Origin: Octopus vulgaris
Taxonomy: Eukaryota
Direction: 5' to 3'
DNA: 64,000 bases
Assembly: GCA_951406725.2 (NCBI GenBank)
Contig: OX597833.1
Location: 57,908,001-57,972,000 of the forward strand
The stretch's first letter is position 1. Each line of letters opens with the position of its first letter. The position numbers were made by a program, and so were the translations under genes. Positions 11,999 to 51,172 of the stretch are shown here, in pieces. The notes under the pieces are model-generated. The model did not search any database. It was not told the DNA's origin and saw only the letters and a list, made by a program, of their open reading frames with translations.

Positions 11999-12048
<50 letters not shown>

Positions 12049-12076
12049 ATGAATGTATGTATGTATATATATATAT
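11724..12076. repeat. Degenerate (GT)n-rich tract (paralogs ~32254-32580, ~48494-48822)
   Basis: Direct reading of the sequence. Confidence 0.95.
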
Positions 12077-12162
12077 AACACAGTGATTGTTTCTTATCAG
12101 GAACAAAATGTTTAATAGAACTGCTATAGAAGTGCTCAATTGAATGAGACAAACATATCAAT

Positions 12163-12353
12163 CTAAGGTTACAGAACAAACAAAGGCAAAGTCATCCACA
12201 TAACATTTCATATCTCGAACATTTAATCATAGAATATACATTTATGACATCACGGAAGATGAAACATGACTCATATGTATATTCTATGATTAAATGTTCG
12301 AGATATGAAATGTTATGTGGATGACCTTGCCTTTGTTTGTTCTGTAACCTTAG
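12163..12353. repeat. Long foldback palindrome (79-bp arms, 33-nt spacer)
   Basis: 12163-12241 is the reverse complement of 12275-12353 with one mismatch. Confidence 0.92.
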
Positions 12354-12429
12354 TTTGTATATGTGACCACGTGAGTACCGCTGGCGATTTTTTTCCTCCG
12401 TCGTCCCTTCTCGGGATCTTTCCTTCTAT

Positions 12430-12464
12430 GTTTCCGACGAAGAGCTCCGCTCGAAAGGTTAAAC
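12430..12464 (+). ncRNA. Degenerate minimal hammerhead-like motif
   Basis: GTTT-CCGACGA-A-GAGC TCC GCTC-GAAAG-GTT-AAAC. The core is non-canonical. Confidence 0.4.
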
Positions 12465-12576
12465 CCTCCTTCTTCCCTTCTTTCCTGAGCGTCCAATAAT
12501 ACTTTATTTGTTCCATGTCCTCGCGTTGTTGTGTGTTTTTACATTTTTGTTTTTTTGTGTGTTTTCTTGTTTGGAT

Positions 12577-12627
<51 letters not shown>

Positions 12628-12675
12628 GTTTAAATATTTATTGGCTAAACTGGCAATATGACCATTCCGAAATAT

Positions 12676-12710
<35 letters not shown>

Positions 12711-12817
12711 ATATAGTATAACGGGAAGCTTTATGAAAATAAACAAAAGACGAAGGCAGGTGGAATACAAACAAACAATTGTATTAGTATGGCGCTCAGG
12801 AATATCAATAAAACAAG

Positions 12818-12855
12818 TCTTTTACGTTTCGAGCCTACGCTCTTCAACAGAAAGA
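12818..12855 (-). ncRNA. Degenerate minimal hammerhead-like motif
   Basis: TCTTT-CTGTTGA-A-GAGC GTAG GCTC-GAAAC-GTA-AAAGA. Core A6 is replaced by T. Confidence 0.5.
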
Positions 12856-12919
12856 TGCACAGAAAAGAAGCACGGAGAGAAACAAGGAGAGAAAAAAATG
12901 CGTGCAGAATCTAGCGAAT

Positions 12920-12956
<37 letters not shown>

Positions 12957-13043
12957 GGCGAGTTGGCAGAAACGTTTGCACGCCGAGCGTTTGTCTGTCC
13001 TTTTTTATCCCCTCTGTGTTTAGCCCCTTGTGGGTAGTAAAGA

Positions 13044-13104
<61 letters not shown>

Positions 13105-13105
<1 letters not shown>

Positions 13106-15897
13106 AGTAGTTGAATGAATTATCTTATTAAGGATAATTCGAAAGATAACCGATACCTGGATACAAATTCACATCAGAAAGAACACGGTTGAAGCTACGT
13201 CCCTAGGGCATAGACTACGTGCCTTCGTGCGGAAATTTGTATGTTTATTTTAAAATTATAAGTATATGAAAGAATGGAGTTGAACGACTAGTTAACAAAT
13301 ATCCTTTATTCTCGACATATGTTTCGAAGGCTGCATATTCCTAATTCCGAAGAAATAGGGAGTACATTATGCAGATTTCTCATCAGGAAAATCAAGGAAC
13401 TTATGTCGACATCAAAATGCAAAAAAAACTTTTAGCTGACCGCTCTCAAGGAGCCCATGGCGATAATGGGTGTCTCTTTATAAGGAGTGACGTCAGAGTG
13501 GCTGAATGTAGAAGAATCTAGAAGTTTCTAAAGGTTCAAGGGTTCAAACGAAGTAGGAGGAGGGAGGCATAAGAATAGTAAGGTGAGAGAGTGCAGGTCA
13601 TAAGAATGGTGGGTTTAAATGATTTCTCTTATGAATGAGTGTCTGTGTGTGTGACTGTATATAACTGTCTTAATGTATGTATGTGTGTGTCTGAATACGT
13701 GATTGTGTTTGTGGATGGGTAATTTAGTGTTTCTACTTTTGGAATTTTTGGATAAGAACTTTAATCTGTTGGGGTTGGTTTCCGATACTAAGACAGAGTT
13801 TTTATTGTTGTGATAAGTGTAAAAATTGTTGCTGGCTTTGGCCACGATACTATTCATCTTATTATCATTACTATTAGTTGTAATATCGTTGGCAAATTCC
13901 CTGGCTATAGGAATGCTGCGATTGTTATCATCAATAATATAACTGTTATTAAGAATGCTGGTACTATTACCACTAACACCACCACTGTTAATAATCTGGC
14001 TAATGTTATTATCATTATTACTATTGCTAACTATTCGTAGTTCTGTAATTCTTCTGTATTTCCTTCTTGAGCAATTCTAAATACTTGTTTTTTGCTAGAA
14101 GAAATTTGAGGACGACTTGTGGGACATTGTAAGGCCATTAGATTTCGTAAATCGCCCGTTAGGAATAAACACCTTAGATACCTCAACAATATCACCAAAG
14201 ATATAAACAGCTCAGACGCTATCCTGGTCCAATCAGATAAAACCAGGAATACATACAAGCTAGCAAAAAAAACAGTATTTAGAATTGCTCAAGAAGGAAA
14301 TACAGAAGAATTACAGAACTACGAATAAGGATACACTTAGAAAAGCCAACTTGGAAATTAAAAAAATCATGGTTACTCATGGTTTGCAAATGAAAACACA
14401 ACCACTCAACCCAAGGCAACCAAGATTCATCGTCAAGGACCATAAACCAAACTTCCAAACCAACCCAGCATTAAGGCTCATTTGCCCTTCTAGTTCCGAC
14501 ATCGGTTCCATCAGTAAGTACATTTTAGATAAATACATACCTAGATTAGTTAATAAGCTTAAACTCAACATATGGTCTAACTCCACTCAAGTCGTAGAAT
14601 GGTTCTCTTGCGTTTCTAATAAAAATAGCACTAAATTCATTCAATTCGATATTTCCACTTTCTACCCTTCGATAAACCCCAGCGTGCTCAATAAGGCCCT
14701 ATGGCACGCACATAACAAGGCAGGGCTGACAAGGGAGGAAATTAATATAATTCTAGCCGCTAGGAAATCCTTCATTCAATTCGATGATAAGTTATGGGTC
14801 CGTAAGGATACTCCCGACGCGTTCGATGTGCCAATGGGAAGCTCAGATAGCGCCCAGGTAGCCGATTTGGTCGGAATCTATATTCTATATGAATTAGCCG
14901 ACCAATTCCCGGACATCTGCGGCAGTCTGTATTGAGACGATTGTCTTTTTTACCTACAGAATGCCCCTAACAGTAGGATACAGAAGACTAAAAATAGATT
15001 AGTTAGATTTTTCAGCAGGATGGGCATTAGCATAATTTTTGACAACGAACTAACTAAGGCCAATTTTTTAGGTGTTACCTTAAATTTGCATAATAATTCT
15101 TACTTCCCTTACCATAAGCCGTCTACGAATCTAAAATATGTCAGTATTTTCAGTAACCATGCAAAAACTATCACCGATAATTTGGTTAAAAATATATCCT
15201 TAAGACTATCAACGTTATCAGCAAATGTCGACATTTTTAAACAGAAAGCGGAATTATATAATGCCGCCTTGTCAAAGGCCGGTTATAGAGATAAGGTATC
15301 ATATATCGATCCGGCCCATCCTAAACTAATATCTGCCCATCAAGATAAGATAACTTCTAATAATAATATAAATAACATAAATAGTGATTTCAGCTCTAGC
15401 AACGTCGACACAAATATATTTTACAATAATAATTTACGGACCAGGGGAGGCCAGCGTAAACCAAAACCCATTCTACAACACAGAAATATACCCTTTAATG
15501 TAAATGTCAACACTCAGCCATTCCAAGAACAAAAAAACTATATCTGGTTTGTGATTCCTTTCGGGAGACAAATCAGGTCTAATCTCCCTTTACAATTCCG
15601 TGAAGCCGTTGCTAAGAATTTTCCTAGGAATCCTAGATACTACTCCACTATAAATTCGCATAAAGTAAGAATAGCATTCTCAAATACTAAAAATCTTTCG
15701 CAGATAATAGCTTCCCACAATAATAAGCTGCTAAATAGGGTCTCATCACCCATGAGTAGCGACACCGCCCTTACCCATTCCAACGTAAAATACAATAATT
15801 ATAATAATAGAAGTAGTATGGATATTAGCAACATTCATAGCAGCATTAGCGTTAGCAATAGTAATAATGATAATAACATTAGTCAGATTATTAACAG
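13105..15897 (+). mobile_element. Penelope-like retroelement A: RT on + (14098-15897) with an inverted 3' segment/pLTR upstream (13105-14033)
   Basis: RT motifs LRLICPS, FIQFDISTFYPSI, FDVPMGSSDSAQVADLVG, LY*DD and FLGVTLNL...YHKP. 13985-14030 is the reverse complement of 15851-15897. Confidence 0.88.
13304..13396 (-). ncRNA. Type I hammerhead ribozyme motif with extended stem II
   Basis: Minus strand: CTTGATTTTC-CTGATGA-[GAA.CTGCATA..CCTA.TTC TTCG GAA.TAGG..TATGCAG..TTC]-GAAAC-ATAT-GTC-GAGAATAAAG. Stem III is the palindrome ACATATGT and the cleavage triplet is GUC. Confidence 0.8.
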
Positions 15898-16645
15898 AAA
15901 TTATGCTTTCTGTTGTATTCGTGAAATGAAGAAAGGTCAATTTGTAGAAATGATATAATGAATAATAACAGTCAATATCTATATCCAATCTCTATCCAAG
16001 CTTCTCAGAATGGTAAATATATGGCAACGAATAGTATATACAGAGAGAGTGTCACTTTTTGTGCAAGTGTTCCTTTCTGGAAACTAGGTCCTATTGGAAT
16101 GCTGGAAGTTGTAAAGGGATTAGTAAAGTAAATTAGTCGAGATTGAAGAAGTAAAATAATTCAGAAATAATAAAAACTGTTTTGGGAATCTCAGAAAATA
16201 ATATCAACGCCCGTTAATGTCACCAACTGAGTAAAAGTGAAAGAATTCTCTGAAAACACGTCACATCTGATTGACCAAATCGAATGCTGGTGAATCGGTA
16301 TTATGTGTCAAAAGGGCAAAGTAACACATCGCTCTATTGTTATGTCAGATACTTTCACTTTAATATTGAAACTATTAAAATGAAACTATTATGTAACAGG
16401 GATGAACTGTAACTGGACATACATTCTGCTAGACATGCTTAGGGTCCATGTAGTGTCATGAGCAAAAAAACAAATTGACTTCTTGCCTAGGGCGAGCCAA
16501 CAGCAATATCGTATCTTCTCTACTATTTCAGTATTACGTGTCAAAAGTGAAAGAAAAACATTTCTCTGTTGTAATGTCAGATACTTAAATACTGAAACTA
16601 TTATATAACAGGGAGGGCAGTAACTGGACATCCATTTTGCTAGAA
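15897..16645 (-). promoter_or_regulatory. Orphaned promoter block of copy 1
   Basis: Homologous to 34217-34975. It retains TTCTCAGAA 16002-16010, AAAAGTGAAAG 16233-16243 and TTCTCTGAA 16246-16254, but abuts Penelope sequence where exon 1 should be. Confidence 0.5.
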
Positions 16646-16745
16646 GAAGATCCGCTATGGTCTTATATGCTACACCACTGGTTTTAAATTCTTACTCATC
16701 AAATTAATATTCAATTTTTCACTCTTATTATTTTAAATTTCAATT

Positions 16746-16819
<74 letters not shown>

Positions 16820-16850
16820 CATGTATACATATAGATGTATATATATATAT

Positions 16851-26962: not shown

Positions 26963-27067
<105 letters not shown>

Positions 27068-27699
27068 CATTGCCATTTAAATTGAGGAAAACTTTTTAAA
27101 TGTTTTGGAATTTCTGGCTTCATGTTTCCTGATAGTAAAATGTCGTCCTAACTTAGGTTATCGATCTTCAATGATTTACTTGGTGTCTTTTGTTTAAATT
27201 AGTAATTTTTGATTGTTACTTATAGAATTCCAATATTCCAACGATGTTTCAGTATAATGCAAAGGTTTCCAGTTTTACATCATCCCAATATGTAGTCACG
27301 ATTATCAAATGGAACTTTCAAGCAAAAGTATATCTCTAGATTCATTCTAATATTTTCTGCCACTTCTTCACTGTTTGGGGATGTTAAAATATGTCAAAAT
27401 GAAAGTTAGTTATGACGTCATCCTTTGAATGCTCTGACGTCATTTCAACGTTGGTTTCAGGGCCACATCCATAACAAAGGCAGTAATATTTCCTGTAGAA
27501 TTCTTTGCTACATTCAGCTTGTGTTTCAAAGAAAGGAGTAGTCTAAATTTATATGATTTTAAAAATTTAACAGTAGATAAACGTGTTTGGTATTACTTCA
27601 GAAAACGTGAGATATATAACAATGAATTTCAAAATATTGTTGAATATTATCAATAAAGAAAGGAATAAGGAAAGTATATTTATGAACACAATCTATCTT

Positions 27700-29181
27700 T
27701 TATAATTCACTCTTGTGAAGTATATTTTTGAACGCTTTGTCATTGGCAAGGTCTTCTACTGAGTGAATGAATTCCAAAACAAATTTTTTGTATTCAGTAT
27801 TTCCATTTCCATACTCATATAAATCAAGTATTATTTCCTTTATCTCCCAAATTTTTATCAGGTCTTTGTTGAAAGGAAGAAATTCTACAGCAGATTTAAG
27901 AGCCAGAACAAACCTATCCATTCCAGAACGTCTTAATTGATCTTTTTCTTCTTCATCATTTTTTTCATCTGCTTCTTTAAAATATAATCTTCCAAACAAA
28001 ATGTTAAAATTAACATCTTGCATTTTGTTATCTACTTTAAATCTTTCACAATACTTCCTGGCATTGTCATATTCTTTCAAAGAGATATATAATAAAATGA
28101 TATCAAAGAGTGTAACTGAACATTCATGAGAAAGTTCAAGAGCTTGTTGAAAGTGATATTCAGCTTTGTTGATTAACTCATTCCTTTCTCTAGGAGGAAT
28201 ACTTCGAACATGTTTTAAAACTTTCGCAAATACATTCGTTTCTTTTGAGAATTGTTTGTTCATTGGGACATATGTATATGTTGGTGTATCCATTCTTAGA
28301 TAAAGTGATCCAAGCCAATGATGAGAATATGATGTTGCTTTTATTTCAATTGCTTTTTCAAACAATTCTCTTCCTTGTTCAAGCTGATTTGAACGTAAAT
28401 AATGATAGGCACTTTTCTCCAAAACATAGCGGTCATCAGGGGAAATATGAAGAGCTCTCTGAAAATACACTTCACATGGTTGACTGAGAAGAAGACAAGG
28501 ACTATGTTTAAACAAACCAATCAATGCTAATGTTCTTCCCATTAGGGCCTTGTCAATATTGTGTGGAAAAGCACATTGTATTTTCTCTAAGTACTGTATT
28601 GATTCCTTAATATTTTCACGCATTTTCTCTTGATCCATGGTCTTTCTTAAACAACGATATTGCAACAAAGCAATAGAAAACATACACAGATAATCGTCTG
28701 GACAAACGTTGAGAGACTCTTTGTAAAGTTCGACAGCTCTTTCATGATCTTTAAAAGATATAGTAGCTAAACAATAAGCAACATTTCTTTTGCCTTCTGC
28801 TTCTATCAGCGAGAAATTTTCTCTTTCTTCAAGCTTGCTTAGATTATCCAAAAGGTTTCTTACCTCAGGGATATTTCCATTGTACAAATGAATGAATGCA
28901 AGGTTGGTTAATGCCACCAGGTTATCTGGCTTCTTTTCTCGAACTTCATTGGCTAATTTTTCAGCTGAAAATTTATCGTTCATCTGCCACAGAATATATA
29001 CTAGGACGTTCTTTTGACGAATCTCATCTTCTAAACCAAATGAGATATCATTACTTAACGAATTTTCTACTTTTTTAGAGAGAGATGACCAAACGTCTTT
29101 GGTTTTCTCAAAACTTTCTTCCATTACATTTGGAAATCTTTTAATTCTCTCCCTATACGATTCTCTTCTACTTCCTTCATC
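27700..29181 (-). CDS. IFIT-like tetratricopeptide-repeat protein, copy 2, exon 2 (493 aa, intact)
   Basis: Open 1482-nt frame preceded by a polypyrimidine acceptor TTTTTGTTTTTATTTCAG|GAT GAA. TPR helices and IFIT-like blocks include LVALTNLAFIHLYNG..E....LD, KDHERA..YKESLNVCP..A...YR, YFQRAL..YV....A..Y.R and TS.SHH.LG.LY. Confidence 0.9.
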   Translation of the reverse strand, partial: DEGSRRESYRERIKRFPNVMEESFEKTKDVWSSLSKKVENSLSNDISFGLEDEIRQKNVLVYILWQMNDKFSAEKLANEVREKKPDNLVALTNLAFIHLYNGNIPEVRNLLDNLSKLEERENFSLIEAEGKRNVAYCLATISFKDHERAVELYKESLNVCPDDYLCMFSIALLQYRCLRKTMDQEKMRENIKESIQYLEKIQCAFPHNIDKALMGRTLALIGLFKHSPCLLLSQPCEVYFQRALHISPDDRYVLEKSAYHYLRSNQLEQGRELFEKAIEIKATSYSHHWLGSLYLRMDTPTYTYVPMNKQFSKETNVFAKVLKHVRSIPPRERNELINKAEYHFQQALELSHECSVTLFDIILLYISLKEYDNARKYCERFKVDNKMQDVNFNILFGRLYFKEADEKNDEEEKDQLRRSGMDRFVLALKSAVEFLPFNKDLIKIWEIKEIILDLYEYGNGNTEYKKFVLEFIHSVEDLANDKAFKNILHKSEL

Positions 29182-33677: not shown

Positions 33678-34047
33678 CGCAGGAGTGGCTGTGTGGTAAG
33701 TAGCTTGCTTAACAACCACATGATTCCGGGTTCAGTCCCACTGCATGGCATCTTGGGCGCAAGTGTCTTCTACTATAGCCTTGTGATTTGGTAGACGGAA
33801 ACTGAAAGAAGCCCGTCGTATATATGTATATATATATATCTGTGTGTATTTGTGTGTCTGTGCTTGACAACCGATGCTGGTGTGTTTATGTCCCCGTTAC
33901 TTAGTGGTTCGGCAAAAGAGACCTATAGAATAAGTACTGGGCTTACAAAAGAATAAGTCCCGGTGTGGAGTTGCTCGATTAAAGGCGGTGCTCTAGCATG
34001 GCTGCGGTCAAATGACTGAAACAAGTAAAAGAGTAAAAGAGAGAGTA
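33675..34047 (+). mobile_element. SINE, near full length, intronic next to the exon-1 donor (paralog 49917-50289)
   Basis: AGGCGCAGGAGTGGCTGTGTGG head and GAGTAAAA tail. Confidence 0.87.
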
Positions 34048-34093
34048 TAGGGTGTACATTTGTTCATGTGAGTGTATATATTGATATACTCAC

Positions 34094-34144
34094 CAGTAGA
34101 ATTTCCTGCATTTTCCCAGTTATTTTCTGCATTTCTTCAGCCAT
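34094..34144 (-). CDS. IFIT-like gene copy 2, first coding exon (MAEEMQKITGKMQEILL)
   Basis: ATG at 34144-34142 (context GGAATGG), 17 codons, then a consensus donor CTG|GTGAGT. Phase 0 matches the phase-0 acceptor at 29181. The predicted intron is 29182-34093. Confidence 0.8.
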
Positions 34145-34321
34145 TCCTTTATAGCTGTGTGTGTATAAAAAGGCAAATTTTCTTTGGACAACAAAATCTG
34201 TACGTTTTCTTTTTGTGAAATTATGCTTTCTGTTGTATTCGTGAAGTGAAGAAAGGTCAATTTGTAGATATGATATAATGAATAATAACAGTCAATATCT
34301 ATATCCAATCTCTATCCAAGC

Positions 34322-34930
34322 TTCTCAGAAGGGTAAATATATGGCAACGAATATTATATACAGAGACTGTGTCACTTTTTGTGCAAGTGTTCCTTTCTGG
34401 AAACCAGGTCCTATAGGAATGCTGGAAGTTGTGAAGGGATTAATAAAGTAAAATAGTCGAGATTGAAGAAGTAAAATAATTCAGAAATAATAAACTGTTT
34501 TGGGAGTCTCAGAAAATAATAACAACGCCCGTTAATGTCACCAACTAAATGAGTAAAAGTGAAAGACTTCTCTGAAAACACGTCACATCCGGATTGACCT
34601 TCCCGAATTCTGGTGAATCGGAATTACGTGTCAAAAGTGGATGTAAAACATCTCTCTATTGTTATGTCAGATACTTTCACTTTAATATTGAAACAATTAA
34701 AATGAAACTATTATGTAACAGGGATGAACTGTAACTGGACATACATTCTGCTAGACTTGCTTAGGGTCCATGTAGTGTCATGAGAAAAAAAAATTTAACT
34801 TCTTGCCTAGGGCGAGCCAACAGCAATATCGTATCCTCTCTACTATTTCAGTATTACGTGTCAAAATCGAAAGAAAAACATTTCTCTGTTGTAATGTCAG
34901 ATACTTTCACTTAAATACTGAAACTATTAT
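34322..34930 (-). promoter_or_regulatory. Putative promoter of copy 2 with IRF-E/ISRE-like and GAS-like motifs
   Basis: GAS-like TTCN3GAA motifs: TTCTCAGAA 34322-34330 and TTCTCTGAA 34568-34576. IRF-type motifs: AAAAGTGAAAG 34555-34565, ACTTTCACTTT 34673-34683, AAAATCGAAAG 34863-34873 and ACTTTCACTT 34903-34912. A TATA-like TATATAA lies on the minus strand at ~34354-34360. These are motif matches only. Confidence 0.5.
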
Positions 34931-35164
34931 ATAACAGGGATGAACTGTAACTGGACATCCATTCTGCTAGAAGAAGATCCGCCATGGTCTTATATGCTAC
35001 ACCACTGGTTTTAAATTTTTACTAATCAAATTAATATTCAATTTTTTACTCTTATTATTTTAAATATAAATTTACATGTATATATATATATATATATATA
35101 CATGTATACATATAGATGTATATATATAGAGAGATGTATATATTTATCTGTATGTATATGTATA

Positions 35165-35468
35165 TCTTTCTATATAAAATTCAAGTTGTGTGTGTGAGAC
35201 TCTGTCTCCTGCAATTTTGATTCCCAAATACTCCCACATTTTGCGGTGCAATTTAGCCAAAAGCGGGTATGTTATAGTCGTCATTCATATTGAACCCTTC
35301 TGCGTATTAGCGCCAATCTACGATGAGTTTACGATTTTAAAAAAATTTACCATCATTTCTTCGAATTTTTAATGATTTTTGCTCGGGTTATATAAGGAAG
35401 TAACTCTCTAAAATGCTTATATAGTTATTTCCTTTACAATGCCGAGCAAAGCCGGGCGATACTGCTAG
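35165..35468 (+). mobile_element. Non-autonomous Helitron-type element (paralog 51412-51716; fragment at ~22000-22088)
   Basis: Starts A|TCTTTCTATATAAA and ends GCCGAGCAAAGCCGGGC...CTAG|T. Confidence 0.7.
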
Positions 35469-35491
35469 TATATATATATATATATATATAT

Positions 35492-50563: not shown

Positions 50564-51172
50564 TTCTCAGAAGGGTAAATATATGGCAACGAATATTATA
50601 TACAGAGACTGTGTCACTTTTTGTGCAAGTGTTCCTTTCTGGAAACCAGGTCCTATAGGAATGCTGGAAGTTGTGAAGGGATTAATAAAGTAAAATAGTC
50701 GAGATTGAAGAAGTAAAATAATTCAGAAATAATAAACTGTTTTGGGAGTCTCAGAAAATAATAACAACGCCCGTTAATGTCACCAACTAAATGAGTAAAA
50801 GTGAAAGACTTCTCTGAAAACACGTCACATCCGGATTGACCTTCCCGAATTCTGGTGAATCGGAATTACGTGTCAAAAGTGGAAGTAAAACATCTCTCTA
50901 TTGTTATGTCAGATACTTTCACTTTAATATTGAAACAATTAAAATGAAACTATTATGTAACAGGGATGAACTGTAACTGGACATACATTCTGCTAGACTT
51001 GCTTAGGGTCCATGTAGTGTCATGAGGAAAAAAAAATTTAACTTCTTGCCTAGGGCGAGCCAACAGCAATATCGTATCCTCTCTACTATTTCAGTATTAC
51101 GTGTCAAAATCGAAAGAAAAACATTTCTCTGTTGTAATGTCAGATACTTTCACTTAAATACTGAAACTATTA
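50564..51172 (-). promoter_or_regulatory. Putative promoter of copy 3 (same IRF/GAS-like motifs)
   Basis: Near-identical to 34322-34930, with AAAAGTGAAAG at 50797-50807 and TTCTCTGAA at 50810-50818. Confidence 0.48.

What the first reader, a model, noticed from the sequence alone, without database searches (positions are those of the whole stretch)
34322..34930. Composite IRF + GAS motif cluster upstream of the IFIT-like gene
Seen: within ~800 bp upstream of the ATG there are four IRF-type motifs and two TTCN3GAA motifs. AAAAGTGAAAG (34555-34565) lies 2 bp from TTCTCTGAA (34568-34576) and is followed by the CRE-like ACACGTCA. This composite is also preserved in the diverged copy 1 block (16233-16254). 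Established: ISRE/GAS elements drive vertebrate ISGs including IFITs, and molluscs encode IRF and STAT factors. Inference: an interferon-like IRF/STAT circuit could control this cluster. Short A-rich motifs do occur by chance in AT-rich DNA.
Basis: partly seen in the sequence, partly recalled or inferred. Interest (0 to 1): 0.7.

Follow-up and report, generated by a model that had tools for sequence, protein, structure and literature searches.

The report
IRF site at octopus IFIT-like promoter
This stretch is the front end of an expressed octopus gene resembling vertebrate antiviral IFIT genes: three of its four 'interferon-type' motifs are just pieces of a common transposon, but the fourth sits next to the likely transcription start and recurs in all four old branches of the gene family, so it likely lets an IRF factor switch these genes on, as in vertebrates.

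Summary
All listed motifs are present at the stated coordinates, but the 'cluster' falls apart. Three of the four IRF-type motifs lie in fragments of a Helitron with about 4,300 candidate copies. One TTCN3GAA lies inside the 5' UTR. 'Copy 1' is a 91%-identical pseudogene, so its match shows little. What survives is one native element, AAAAGTGAAAG (34555-34565), 30-96 bp upstream of the 5' ends of spliced contigs from 4 of 4 runs. It is kept in 12 of 12 promoter copies that retain their start exon. Its core recurs 250-420 bp before the ATG in all four paralogue clades, down to 37% protein identity, twice as a full ISRE. The adjacent GAS (9 of 12) and CRE (8 of 12) are not kept at that position; an ETS-like site at fixed spacing is kept in two clades. 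The genome encodes IRF1/2-like, STAT, ETS and RLR factors, and one IRF gene has a strong GAS cluster at its own 5' end. Best reading: an IRF-driven promoter, with STAT probably acting one step upstream. No binding or induction data exist here.

The parts
34555..34565 (+). Native IRF-type element (IRF-E1), AAAAGTGAAAG; candidate functional site
   Evidence: not in Helitron; kept in 19 of 21 related blocks and 12 of 12 with start exon; colinear 10/10 match in 56%-identity paralogue
34585..34592 (-).
   Evidence: Same 19-bp spacing in clade C; pattern has 15 genome matches, 14 at IFIT-like loci; intact in 13 of 21 blocks; motif label recalled
34568..34576 (.). GAS-like TTCTCTGAA, lying in the spacer between ETS-like site and IRF-E1; not positionally conserved
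   Evidence: Intact in 13 of 21 blocks, 9 of 12 with start exon; absent at this position in clade C
34578..34585 (.). CRE-like ACACGTCA; not conserved
   Evidence: 10 of 21 blocks; 1 observed vs 0.23 in shuffles, P 0.20
34322..34330 (.). GAS-like TTCTCAGAA inside the transcribed 5' UTR
   Evidence: Covered by spliced contigs of 4 of 4 runs; not kept at this position in clade C
34094..34525 (-). Exon 1 of IFIT-like copy 2 (5' UTR plus 17 codons; ATG 34144-34142; donor GT at 34093); 5' limit approximate (34459-34525)
   Evidence: Contigs leave the genome at 34093 into exon-2 sequence in 4 of 4 runs; peptide matches P0002 N-terminus
27700..29181 (-). Exon 2 of IFIT-like copy 2, intact TPR coding exon
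   Evidence: best PDB hit human IFIT5, E 5.7e-6, profile E 1e-9
34618..34755 (+). Helitron fragment (model positions 192-332) carrying IRF-type motifs at 34674-34683 and 34699-34708
   Evidence: nhmmer E 4e-34; 94% to unlinked copy L019
34756..35069 (+). Second Helitron fragment (model positions 99-430) carrying the IRF-type motif at 34864-34873
   Evidence: nhmmer E 7e-94; dispersed over many contigs
15897..16849 (-). Copy 1 promoter relic (91% identical), cut off before the ATG; its gene is broken
   Evidence: no exon-1 coding match, and a stop plus frameshift in exon 2
50797..50834 (+). Same composite in copy 3 (99% identical unit; exon 2 frameshifted)

Best explanation
The region is the 5' UTR and likely proximal promoter of an expressed two-exon IFIT-like gene in a tandem array, in which one native element at 34555-34565 likely binds an IRF1/2-like factor to drive the gene, while the other three IRF-type motifs are Helitron sequence. 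Shown: gene structure, splicing, motif positions, transposon origin, and retention of the element across paralogues. Inferred: transcription starts near 34460-34530; an IRF1/2-like protein binds the element, helped in two clades by an ETS factor 19 bp away; STAT acts mainly one step upstream, on the GAS cluster at the 5' end of an IRF1/2-like gene, giving STAT to IRF to IFIT-like. Untested: binding and inducibility by dsRNA or virus.
For: Spliced contigs of 4 of 4 runs (3 studies) end at 34459, 34470, 34483 and 34525, with none covering 34536-34745; the element lies 30-96 bp upstream. It is kept in 12 of 12 blocks with a start exon; the 2 losses among 21 are in exon-less relics. It is an exact colinear 10-bp match in clade C, where non-coding identity is 59-62% (chance for a preset site 0.005-0.008), and the A/C split predates the O. 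bimaculoides divergence. The core AAAGTGAAA lies 254-422 bp before the ATG in clades A, B, C (3 of 3 copies) and D (4 of 5), as GAAAGTGAAA in B and C, against 12 of 837 background 300-bp windows; P about 5e-4 for the unalignable clades B and D alone. Three IRF genes are present, two closest to IRF1/IRF2 with the recognition-helix stretch conserved; one is expressed in hemocytes (PMC4199593 Table S1). STAT, ETS and RLR domains are present. The C25 IRF gene has TTCCTGGAA twice plus TTCTGAGAA 50-130 bp before its transcript's 5' end, in single-copy DNA, against 0 of 1,504 background windows with two TTCCNGGAA. Bivalve IRF1 binds ISRE (PMC13524488, passages).
Against: No binding, chromatin or induction data. 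In the window's clade the site is a single GAAA with an AAAA flank, not a canonical GAAANNGAAA (definition in PMC6954429). Other exact runs of 8-12 bp exist in the same alignments, so the site is not uniquely conserved. The 21 clade-A blocks are recent duplicates and not independent. IRF-like strings are cheap in this genome: the strict pattern hits 56 of 837 background windows, and a SINE carries an ISRE-form string 138,611 times. The 5' ends come from contigs of runs only guessed to be RNA; two have loose ends, and no DNA run was laid on this stretch. Clade D's site is in the opposite orientation, unalignable, and resembles the Helitron motif over up to 16 bp in 2 of 4 copies. The ETS-like site is absent in clade B and in 4 of 12 start-exon copies, and was noticed after the fact. 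The background set was intergenic or intronic, not promoters.
Confidence: 0.6

Rival explanations
1. A true IRF+STAT composite, as first proposed: STAT binds TTCN3GAA sites directly on the IFIT-like promoters, with sites turning over in position between clades.
For: Two TTCN3GAA in the native 296 bp (P 0.009). Clade C has two in 3 of 3 copies, one abutting an ISRE-like string and kept through a spacer change. Clade D has TTCCCGGAA in 3 of 5 copies. A STAT gene is present.
Against: The named GAS is broken in 8 of 21 blocks, including 3 of 12 with a start exon, and absent at that position in clade C. None in clade B. A DNA run shows a variant that breaks clade C's upstream GAS while leaving the ETS-like and IRF sites intact. 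Enrichment outside clade A is only P 0.02-0.10. A 2-bp gap would crowd an IRF and a STAT dimer (inference).
Confidence: 0.2
2. The conserved element is an ordinary constitutive core-promoter feature (ETS site plus a pyrimidine-rich tract) or is inherited by chance, and IRFs play no part.
For: Several similar-length conserved runs in the same 5' region; transcripts are seen in runs with no known immune challenge; high motif background.
Against: The same 9-mer appears in two unalignable clades (P about 5e-4) and extends to a full tandem ISRE in clades B and C.
Confidence: 0.15
3. Helitron exaptation: the Helitron fragment that abuts the promoter was kept because it adds IRF sites and strengthens induction.
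For: The proximal fragment covers just the motif-bearing part (model 192-332), and in the 61.6-Mb copies a fragment of about 47 bp holding one motif remains.
Against: That motif is intact in only 13 of 21 blocks (6 of 12 with start exon) and is broken in copy 2 itself, against 28 of 30 unlinked copies (best-match biased). Two of the motifs are the arms of an internal hairpin of the element (z -3.5). Clades B, C and D lack the fragment yet keep the native site.
Confidence: 0.05

Closest known systems
ISRE-containing promoters of jawed-vertebrate IFIT genes (PMC3688568, passages read)
   Same: Tandem, lineage-specifically expanded TPR genes; two exons with a tiny first coding exon; an IRF-type element close to the transcription start.
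   Different: One IRF-type site instead of two or three ISREs; not a canonical tandem GAAA in this clade; 17 codons in exon 1; orthology to vertebrate IFIT not established (that paper found no IFIT in the invertebrate deuterostomes it searched); interferon and ISGF3 components not looked for here.
Bivalve interferon-like axis: CgIRF1/CgIRF8, CfIRF1/2 binding ISRE (PMC13524488 passages; PMC5869526 passages; PMC8218723 listing only)
   Same: Molluscan IRF1-like factors that bind ISRE and act downstream of RLR/MAVS.
   Different: Cephalopod; the target is an IFIT-like effector gene; the evidence here is comparative, not biochemical.
Vertebrate STAT-to-IRF1-to-ISG relay (IRF1 induced via JAK/STAT; PMC13524488 introduction)
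   Same: GAS cluster at the 5' end of an IRF1/2-like gene and an IRF element on the effector gene.
   Different: Inferred from motifs only; upstream cytokine unknown.
Transposon-borne factor sites (MER41 STAT1/IRF1 sites in mammals; Helitron HSE and MSL sites in worms and flies; all recalled, no call)
   Same: A high-copy element carrying factor-like motifs beside an immune gene.
   Different: No sign of selective retention here; the conserved site is native and older than the insertion.

Membership tests
IFIT-type ISRE promoter | Canonical tandem ISRE, GAAANNGAAA | tested here: not met
   0 matches in 34150-35080; met in paralogue clades B and C
IFIT-type ISRE promoter | IRF-type element within about 200 bp upstream of the transcription start | tested here: met
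   30-96 bp from contig 5' ends in 4 of 4 runs; start site approximate
IFIT-type ISRE promoter | Two or more ISRE-type sites in the same orientation | tested here: not met
   One native site; the others are Helitron-derived
IFIT-type ISRE promoter | Element under evolutionary constraint | tested here: met
   12 of 12 start-exon copies; core in four clades; paralogues only, no second species' promoter
IFIT-type ISRE promoter | IRF binding and induction by dsRNA, virus or cytokine | not testable with these tools
   Needs EMSA, ChIP, reporter or challenge RNA-seq
GAS (STAT) element | TTCN3GAA palindrome | tested here: met
   34568-34576 and 34322-34330; only the 5' UTR one fits the stricter TTCYNRGAA (recalled consensus)
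GAS (STAT) element | Positional conservation | tested here: not met
   13 of 21 blocks; absent at that position in clade C
IFIT protein family | TPR array with best similarity to IFITs | tested here: met
   PDB IFIT5 is the top hit; IFIT1/2/3/5 by profile; Atlas neighbours are IFIT and TTC22 clusters
IFIT protein family | Two-exon gene with short first exon | tested here: met
IFIT protein family | Groups with vertebrate IFITs in a tree, apart from TTC22 and other TPR proteins | not tested
   No vertebrate IFIT sequence was fetched; nearest named relatives are molluscan
IFIT protein family | RNA 5'-end binding pocket | tested here: inconclusive
   Single-sequence model of a paralogue had pLDDT 37.6; not used further
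Helitron (non-autonomous) | 5' TC after A; 3' short GC stem then CTAG before T; dispersed copies | tested here: met
   A|TC in 20 of 30 copies; CTAG|T in 6 of 8 ends printed, out of 10 copies fetched; 4,307 candidates

The most novel reading that the evidence does not exclude
Octopus runs a vertebrate-like two-step antiviral circuit: STAT induces an IRF1/2-like gene through a GAS cluster, and that IRF induces an expanded family of IFIT-like effectors through an IRF element conserved in all clades. The IFIT-ISRE link, described as a jawed-vertebrate innovation that co-evolved with interferon, would then be either ancestral to bilaterians or convergently wired in molluscs.
Probability: 0.35. Interest if true: 0.78.

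Novelty: new member of a known kind. Interest (0 to 1): 0.5.

Why it matters
PMC3688568 (passages read) ties IFIT genes and their ISRE promoters to jawed vertebrates and interferon. A conserved IRF element on a mollusc-wide IFIT-like family, plus a GAS cluster on the octopus IRF1/2-like gene, gives a short, mutable test of whether that wiring exists in a protostome. It also gives a candidate antiviral-response reporter for cephalopods. The case is also a warning: octopus repeats carry IRF-like strings in large numbers, so motif counts alone mean little in this genome.

Tried and rejected
Motif density as evidence: rejected after the Helitron was found. Copy 1 as conservation evidence: rejected, a 91%-identical pseudogene. 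Helitron origin of IRF-E1: the profile gave only E 8.1 there, not supported. Helitron capture of the IFIT promoter: no significant match in clade C or D promoters. ETS-N19-IRF as a genome-wide regulon signature: 14 of 15 matches are IFIT-like loci, so it is family-specific. Treating the 35165-35480 repeat as the same element's 3' end: 0 of 30 copies carried it within 1.5 kb. Start site of the clade C gene: splicing seen in 2 runs, but the contigs were too short to place the start; 1 of 4 runs gave nothing. No listed run is on record as RNA. Viperin and STAT_bind family searches found nothing, which is inconclusive in an exon-wise search. The RLR gene's first exon was not identified in 50 kb upstream, so its promoter is untested. 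Upstream regions of the other two IRF genes had no transcript anchor and were uninformative. The structure prediction was too poor to use. The C-terminal domain of clade C had no Pfam or PDB hit. No second species' promoter was available. Earlier scan findings: none. Paper searches listed no study of cephalopod IFIT-like promoters; the library lacks most subscription journals, where much mollusc IRF work is published.

Full report
Setting. The window lies on contig C20 of a 2.8-Gb genome. Close protein relatives are named Octopus vulgaris, O. sinensis and O. bimaculoides IFIT-like or uncharacterised proteins. It holds four minus-strand copies of a TPR gene in a tandem array of about 16-kb units. 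The best solved-structure match is human IFIT5 (E 5.7e-6); an 8-sequence profile finds IFIT5, 1, 2 and 3 (E 1e-9 to 5e-3) among generic TPR proteins. Atlas neighbours are vertebrate IFIT and TTC22 clusters. Of the ten top profile hits looked up by name, one is octopus and nine are gastropod or bivalve proteins, so this is a mollusc-wide IFIT-like family. Orthology to vertebrate IFIT was not tested. Coding exon 2 is intact in copies 2 and 4 and frameshifted in copy 3; copy 1 has a stop, a frameshift and no exon-1 coding part.

The observation. In 2,000 shuffles of 34322-34930, four strict IRF-type motifs compare with a mean of 0.08 and two TTCN3GAA with 0.29 (P 0.034); there is no GAAANNGAAA.

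Gene structure. Contigs from 4 of 4 runs (3 studies; the tool only guesses they are RNA) leave the genome at 34093 and continue into exon-2 sequence. They extend to 34459, 34470, 34483 and 34525 (two with short loose ends), and none covers 34536-34745. Two runs match copy 2 with no difference. So 34322-34459 at least is 5' UTR, the first GAS-like motif is transcribed, and the composite lies 30-130 bp upstream of the 5' ends. No DNA run was laid on this stretch, so the start site is a hint.

Three of four IRF motifs are transposon. 34756-35060 matches many unlinked places (3,389 candidates; 4,307 for the element's 5' part, 40 scored). The element starts A|TC in 20 of 30 copies and ends in a short GC stem plus CTAG|T in 6 of the 8 ends printed from 10 copies fetched: a non-autonomous Helitron of 3-5 kb. 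A profile of 30 copies maps to 34618-34755 and 34756-35069. All 30 copies carry at least one strict IRF-type motif and 26 carry two or more; none has TTCN3GAA. Two of these motifs are the arms of an internal hairpin. With the Helitron removed, the native 296 bp hold one IRF motif (P 0.05) and two TTCN3GAA (P 0.009). PMC13282606 (passages) reports a Helitron expansion about 25 million years ago and a vulgaris-bimaculoides split at 13-33 million years.

Recent copies. The composite has 21 related blocks, 20 on C20 and one on C8. The IRF site is intact in 19, GAS in 13, CRE in 10, and an ETS-like CGGAWGT in 13. Among the 12 blocks that keep the start exon the counts are 12, 9, 8 and 8. These are recent duplicates and not independent.

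Old paralogues. The family has further clades: B (60.2 Mb; 86% in exon 2, divergent exon 1), C (73.3-73.6 Mb; 56%) and D (8.8 Mb; 37%). Clade C groups with an O. bimaculoides protein, and A/B with another (support 99-100), so the A/C split predates that species split. Clade C's upstream region aligns with copy 2 (score 131 vs shuffle maximum 50) at 59% identity. The IRF site is an exact colinear 10-bp match, extended to GAAAGTGAAAG, with the ETS-like site at the same 19-bp spacing, while the GAS and CRE positions are not kept. Chance for a preset 10-mer is 0.005-0.008, but other exact runs of 8-12 bp occur. The ETS-N19-IRF pattern has 15 genome matches (control 8), 14 at IFIT-like loci. The core AAAGTGAAA lies 254-422 bp before the ATG in A, B, C (3 of 3) and D (4 of 5; the fifth has a TA microsatellite there), against 12 of 837 background windows. 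For the unalignable clades B and D alone P is about 5e-4. The background is not promoter sequence, and D's site is inverted and partly Helitron-like.

STAT. TTCN3GAA motifs occur at other positions in C (two, in 3 of 3 copies) and D (TTCCCGGAA in 3 of 5), and not in B: P 0.02-0.10. A DNA run carries a variant that breaks C's upstream GAS but not its ETS-like or IRF sites. Direct STAT input is therefore possible but unproven. A clearer STAT signature lies elsewhere. A hemocyte transcript of the C25 IRF1/2-like gene (PMC4199593 Table S1, rows seen) locates an upstream non-coding exon. Within 50-130 bp of that contig's 5' end lie TTCCTGGAA twice (a local duplication, so one event) and TTCTGAGAA, in single-copy DNA. 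Background: 6 of 1,504 windows have one TTCCNGGAA and none has two. That contig's 5' end need not be the start site.

Factors. Three IRF genes, two closest to IRF1/IRF2 structures with the helix stretch FRCALNSL conserved (its role in reading GAAA is recalled); one STAT N-domain, matching a STAT5-like hemocyte transcript; 15 ETS-domain matches; one RLR C-terminal domain. Bivalve IRF1 proteins are reported to bind ISRE (PMC13524488, passages; PMC5869526, passages).

Mechanism. Most likely an IRF1/2-like factor binds 34555-34565 just upstream of the start and drives the gene, with an ETS factor as partner in clades A and C, and STAT acts through the IRF gene (0.6). Rivals: direct IRF+STAT composite (0.2), constitutive or chance element (0.15), Helitron exaptation (0.05). 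Gene structure, transposon origin and retention are shown; binding, start site and inducibility are inferred or untested.

Novelty. ISRE-driven IFIT genes are established in jawed vertebrates and were argued to have arisen with interferon (PMC3688568, passages). Ten searches of the open library listed no study of cephalopod IFIT-like promoters; subscription journals are largely missing from it. PMC9334734 and PMC12737575 (passages) added nothing on this. Table S1 of PMC4199593 was cut when stored, so IFIT-like rows may be unseen. This is a likely new member of a known kind of promoter. Its interest lies in the lineage and in the short experimental path.

Noticed in passing
L150:4905-4983 (G000:C25, about 8,919,950-8,920,030): Single-copy GAS cluster (TTCCTGGAA twice, TTCTGAGAA) just upstream of the first known exon of an IRF1/2-like gene; a stronger STAT-site candidate than the one in the finding.
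   Followed up: yes
window 27064-27611 and equivalents; P0013 residues 595-741; L144-L146: Older paralogues (about 740 aa) carry a C-terminal domain whose Atlas neighbours are TIR domains (score about 0.90, a lead only; no Pfam or PDB hit). The window's copies stop before it and keep a decayed remnant downstream.
   Followed up: partly
window 33794-33808 and other SINE copies: The common SINE-like repeat carries GGAAACTGAAAG, an ISRE-form string; 138,611 exact 15-mer matches genome-wide vs 8 for the control. SINE label recalled.
   Followed up: partly
G000:C20:61,636,000-61,662,000 (L053, L054): The promoter block of about 200 bp with its IRF site is tandemly repeated at about 356-bp spacing, up to four times, also inside introns.
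   Followed up: no
window 12027-15897: Copy 1's exon-1 coding part is replaced by unrelated DNA that includes a reverse-transcriptase-like frame (14264-15958; Penelope-like by eye, no Pfam hit).
   Followed up: no
G000:C8:113,854,039-113,854,652 (L055): An orphan promoter plus exon 1 on another contig, with no exon 2 found in about 18 kb downstream.
   Followed up: partly
L138:5827 and L143: The 60.205-Mb gene has an exon 1 like the O. bimaculoides protein but an exon 2 grouping with its neighbour, suggesting gene conversion.
   Followed up: no
L043:2719-2941: A low-depth (2.5) unspliced contig in one run ends just upstream of the ETS-like site; possibly divergent transcription or DNA carry-over.
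   Followed up: no
window 35165-35480: A second repeat ending in a GC stem plus CTAGT, Helitron-like but not linked to the element described.
   Followed up: partly
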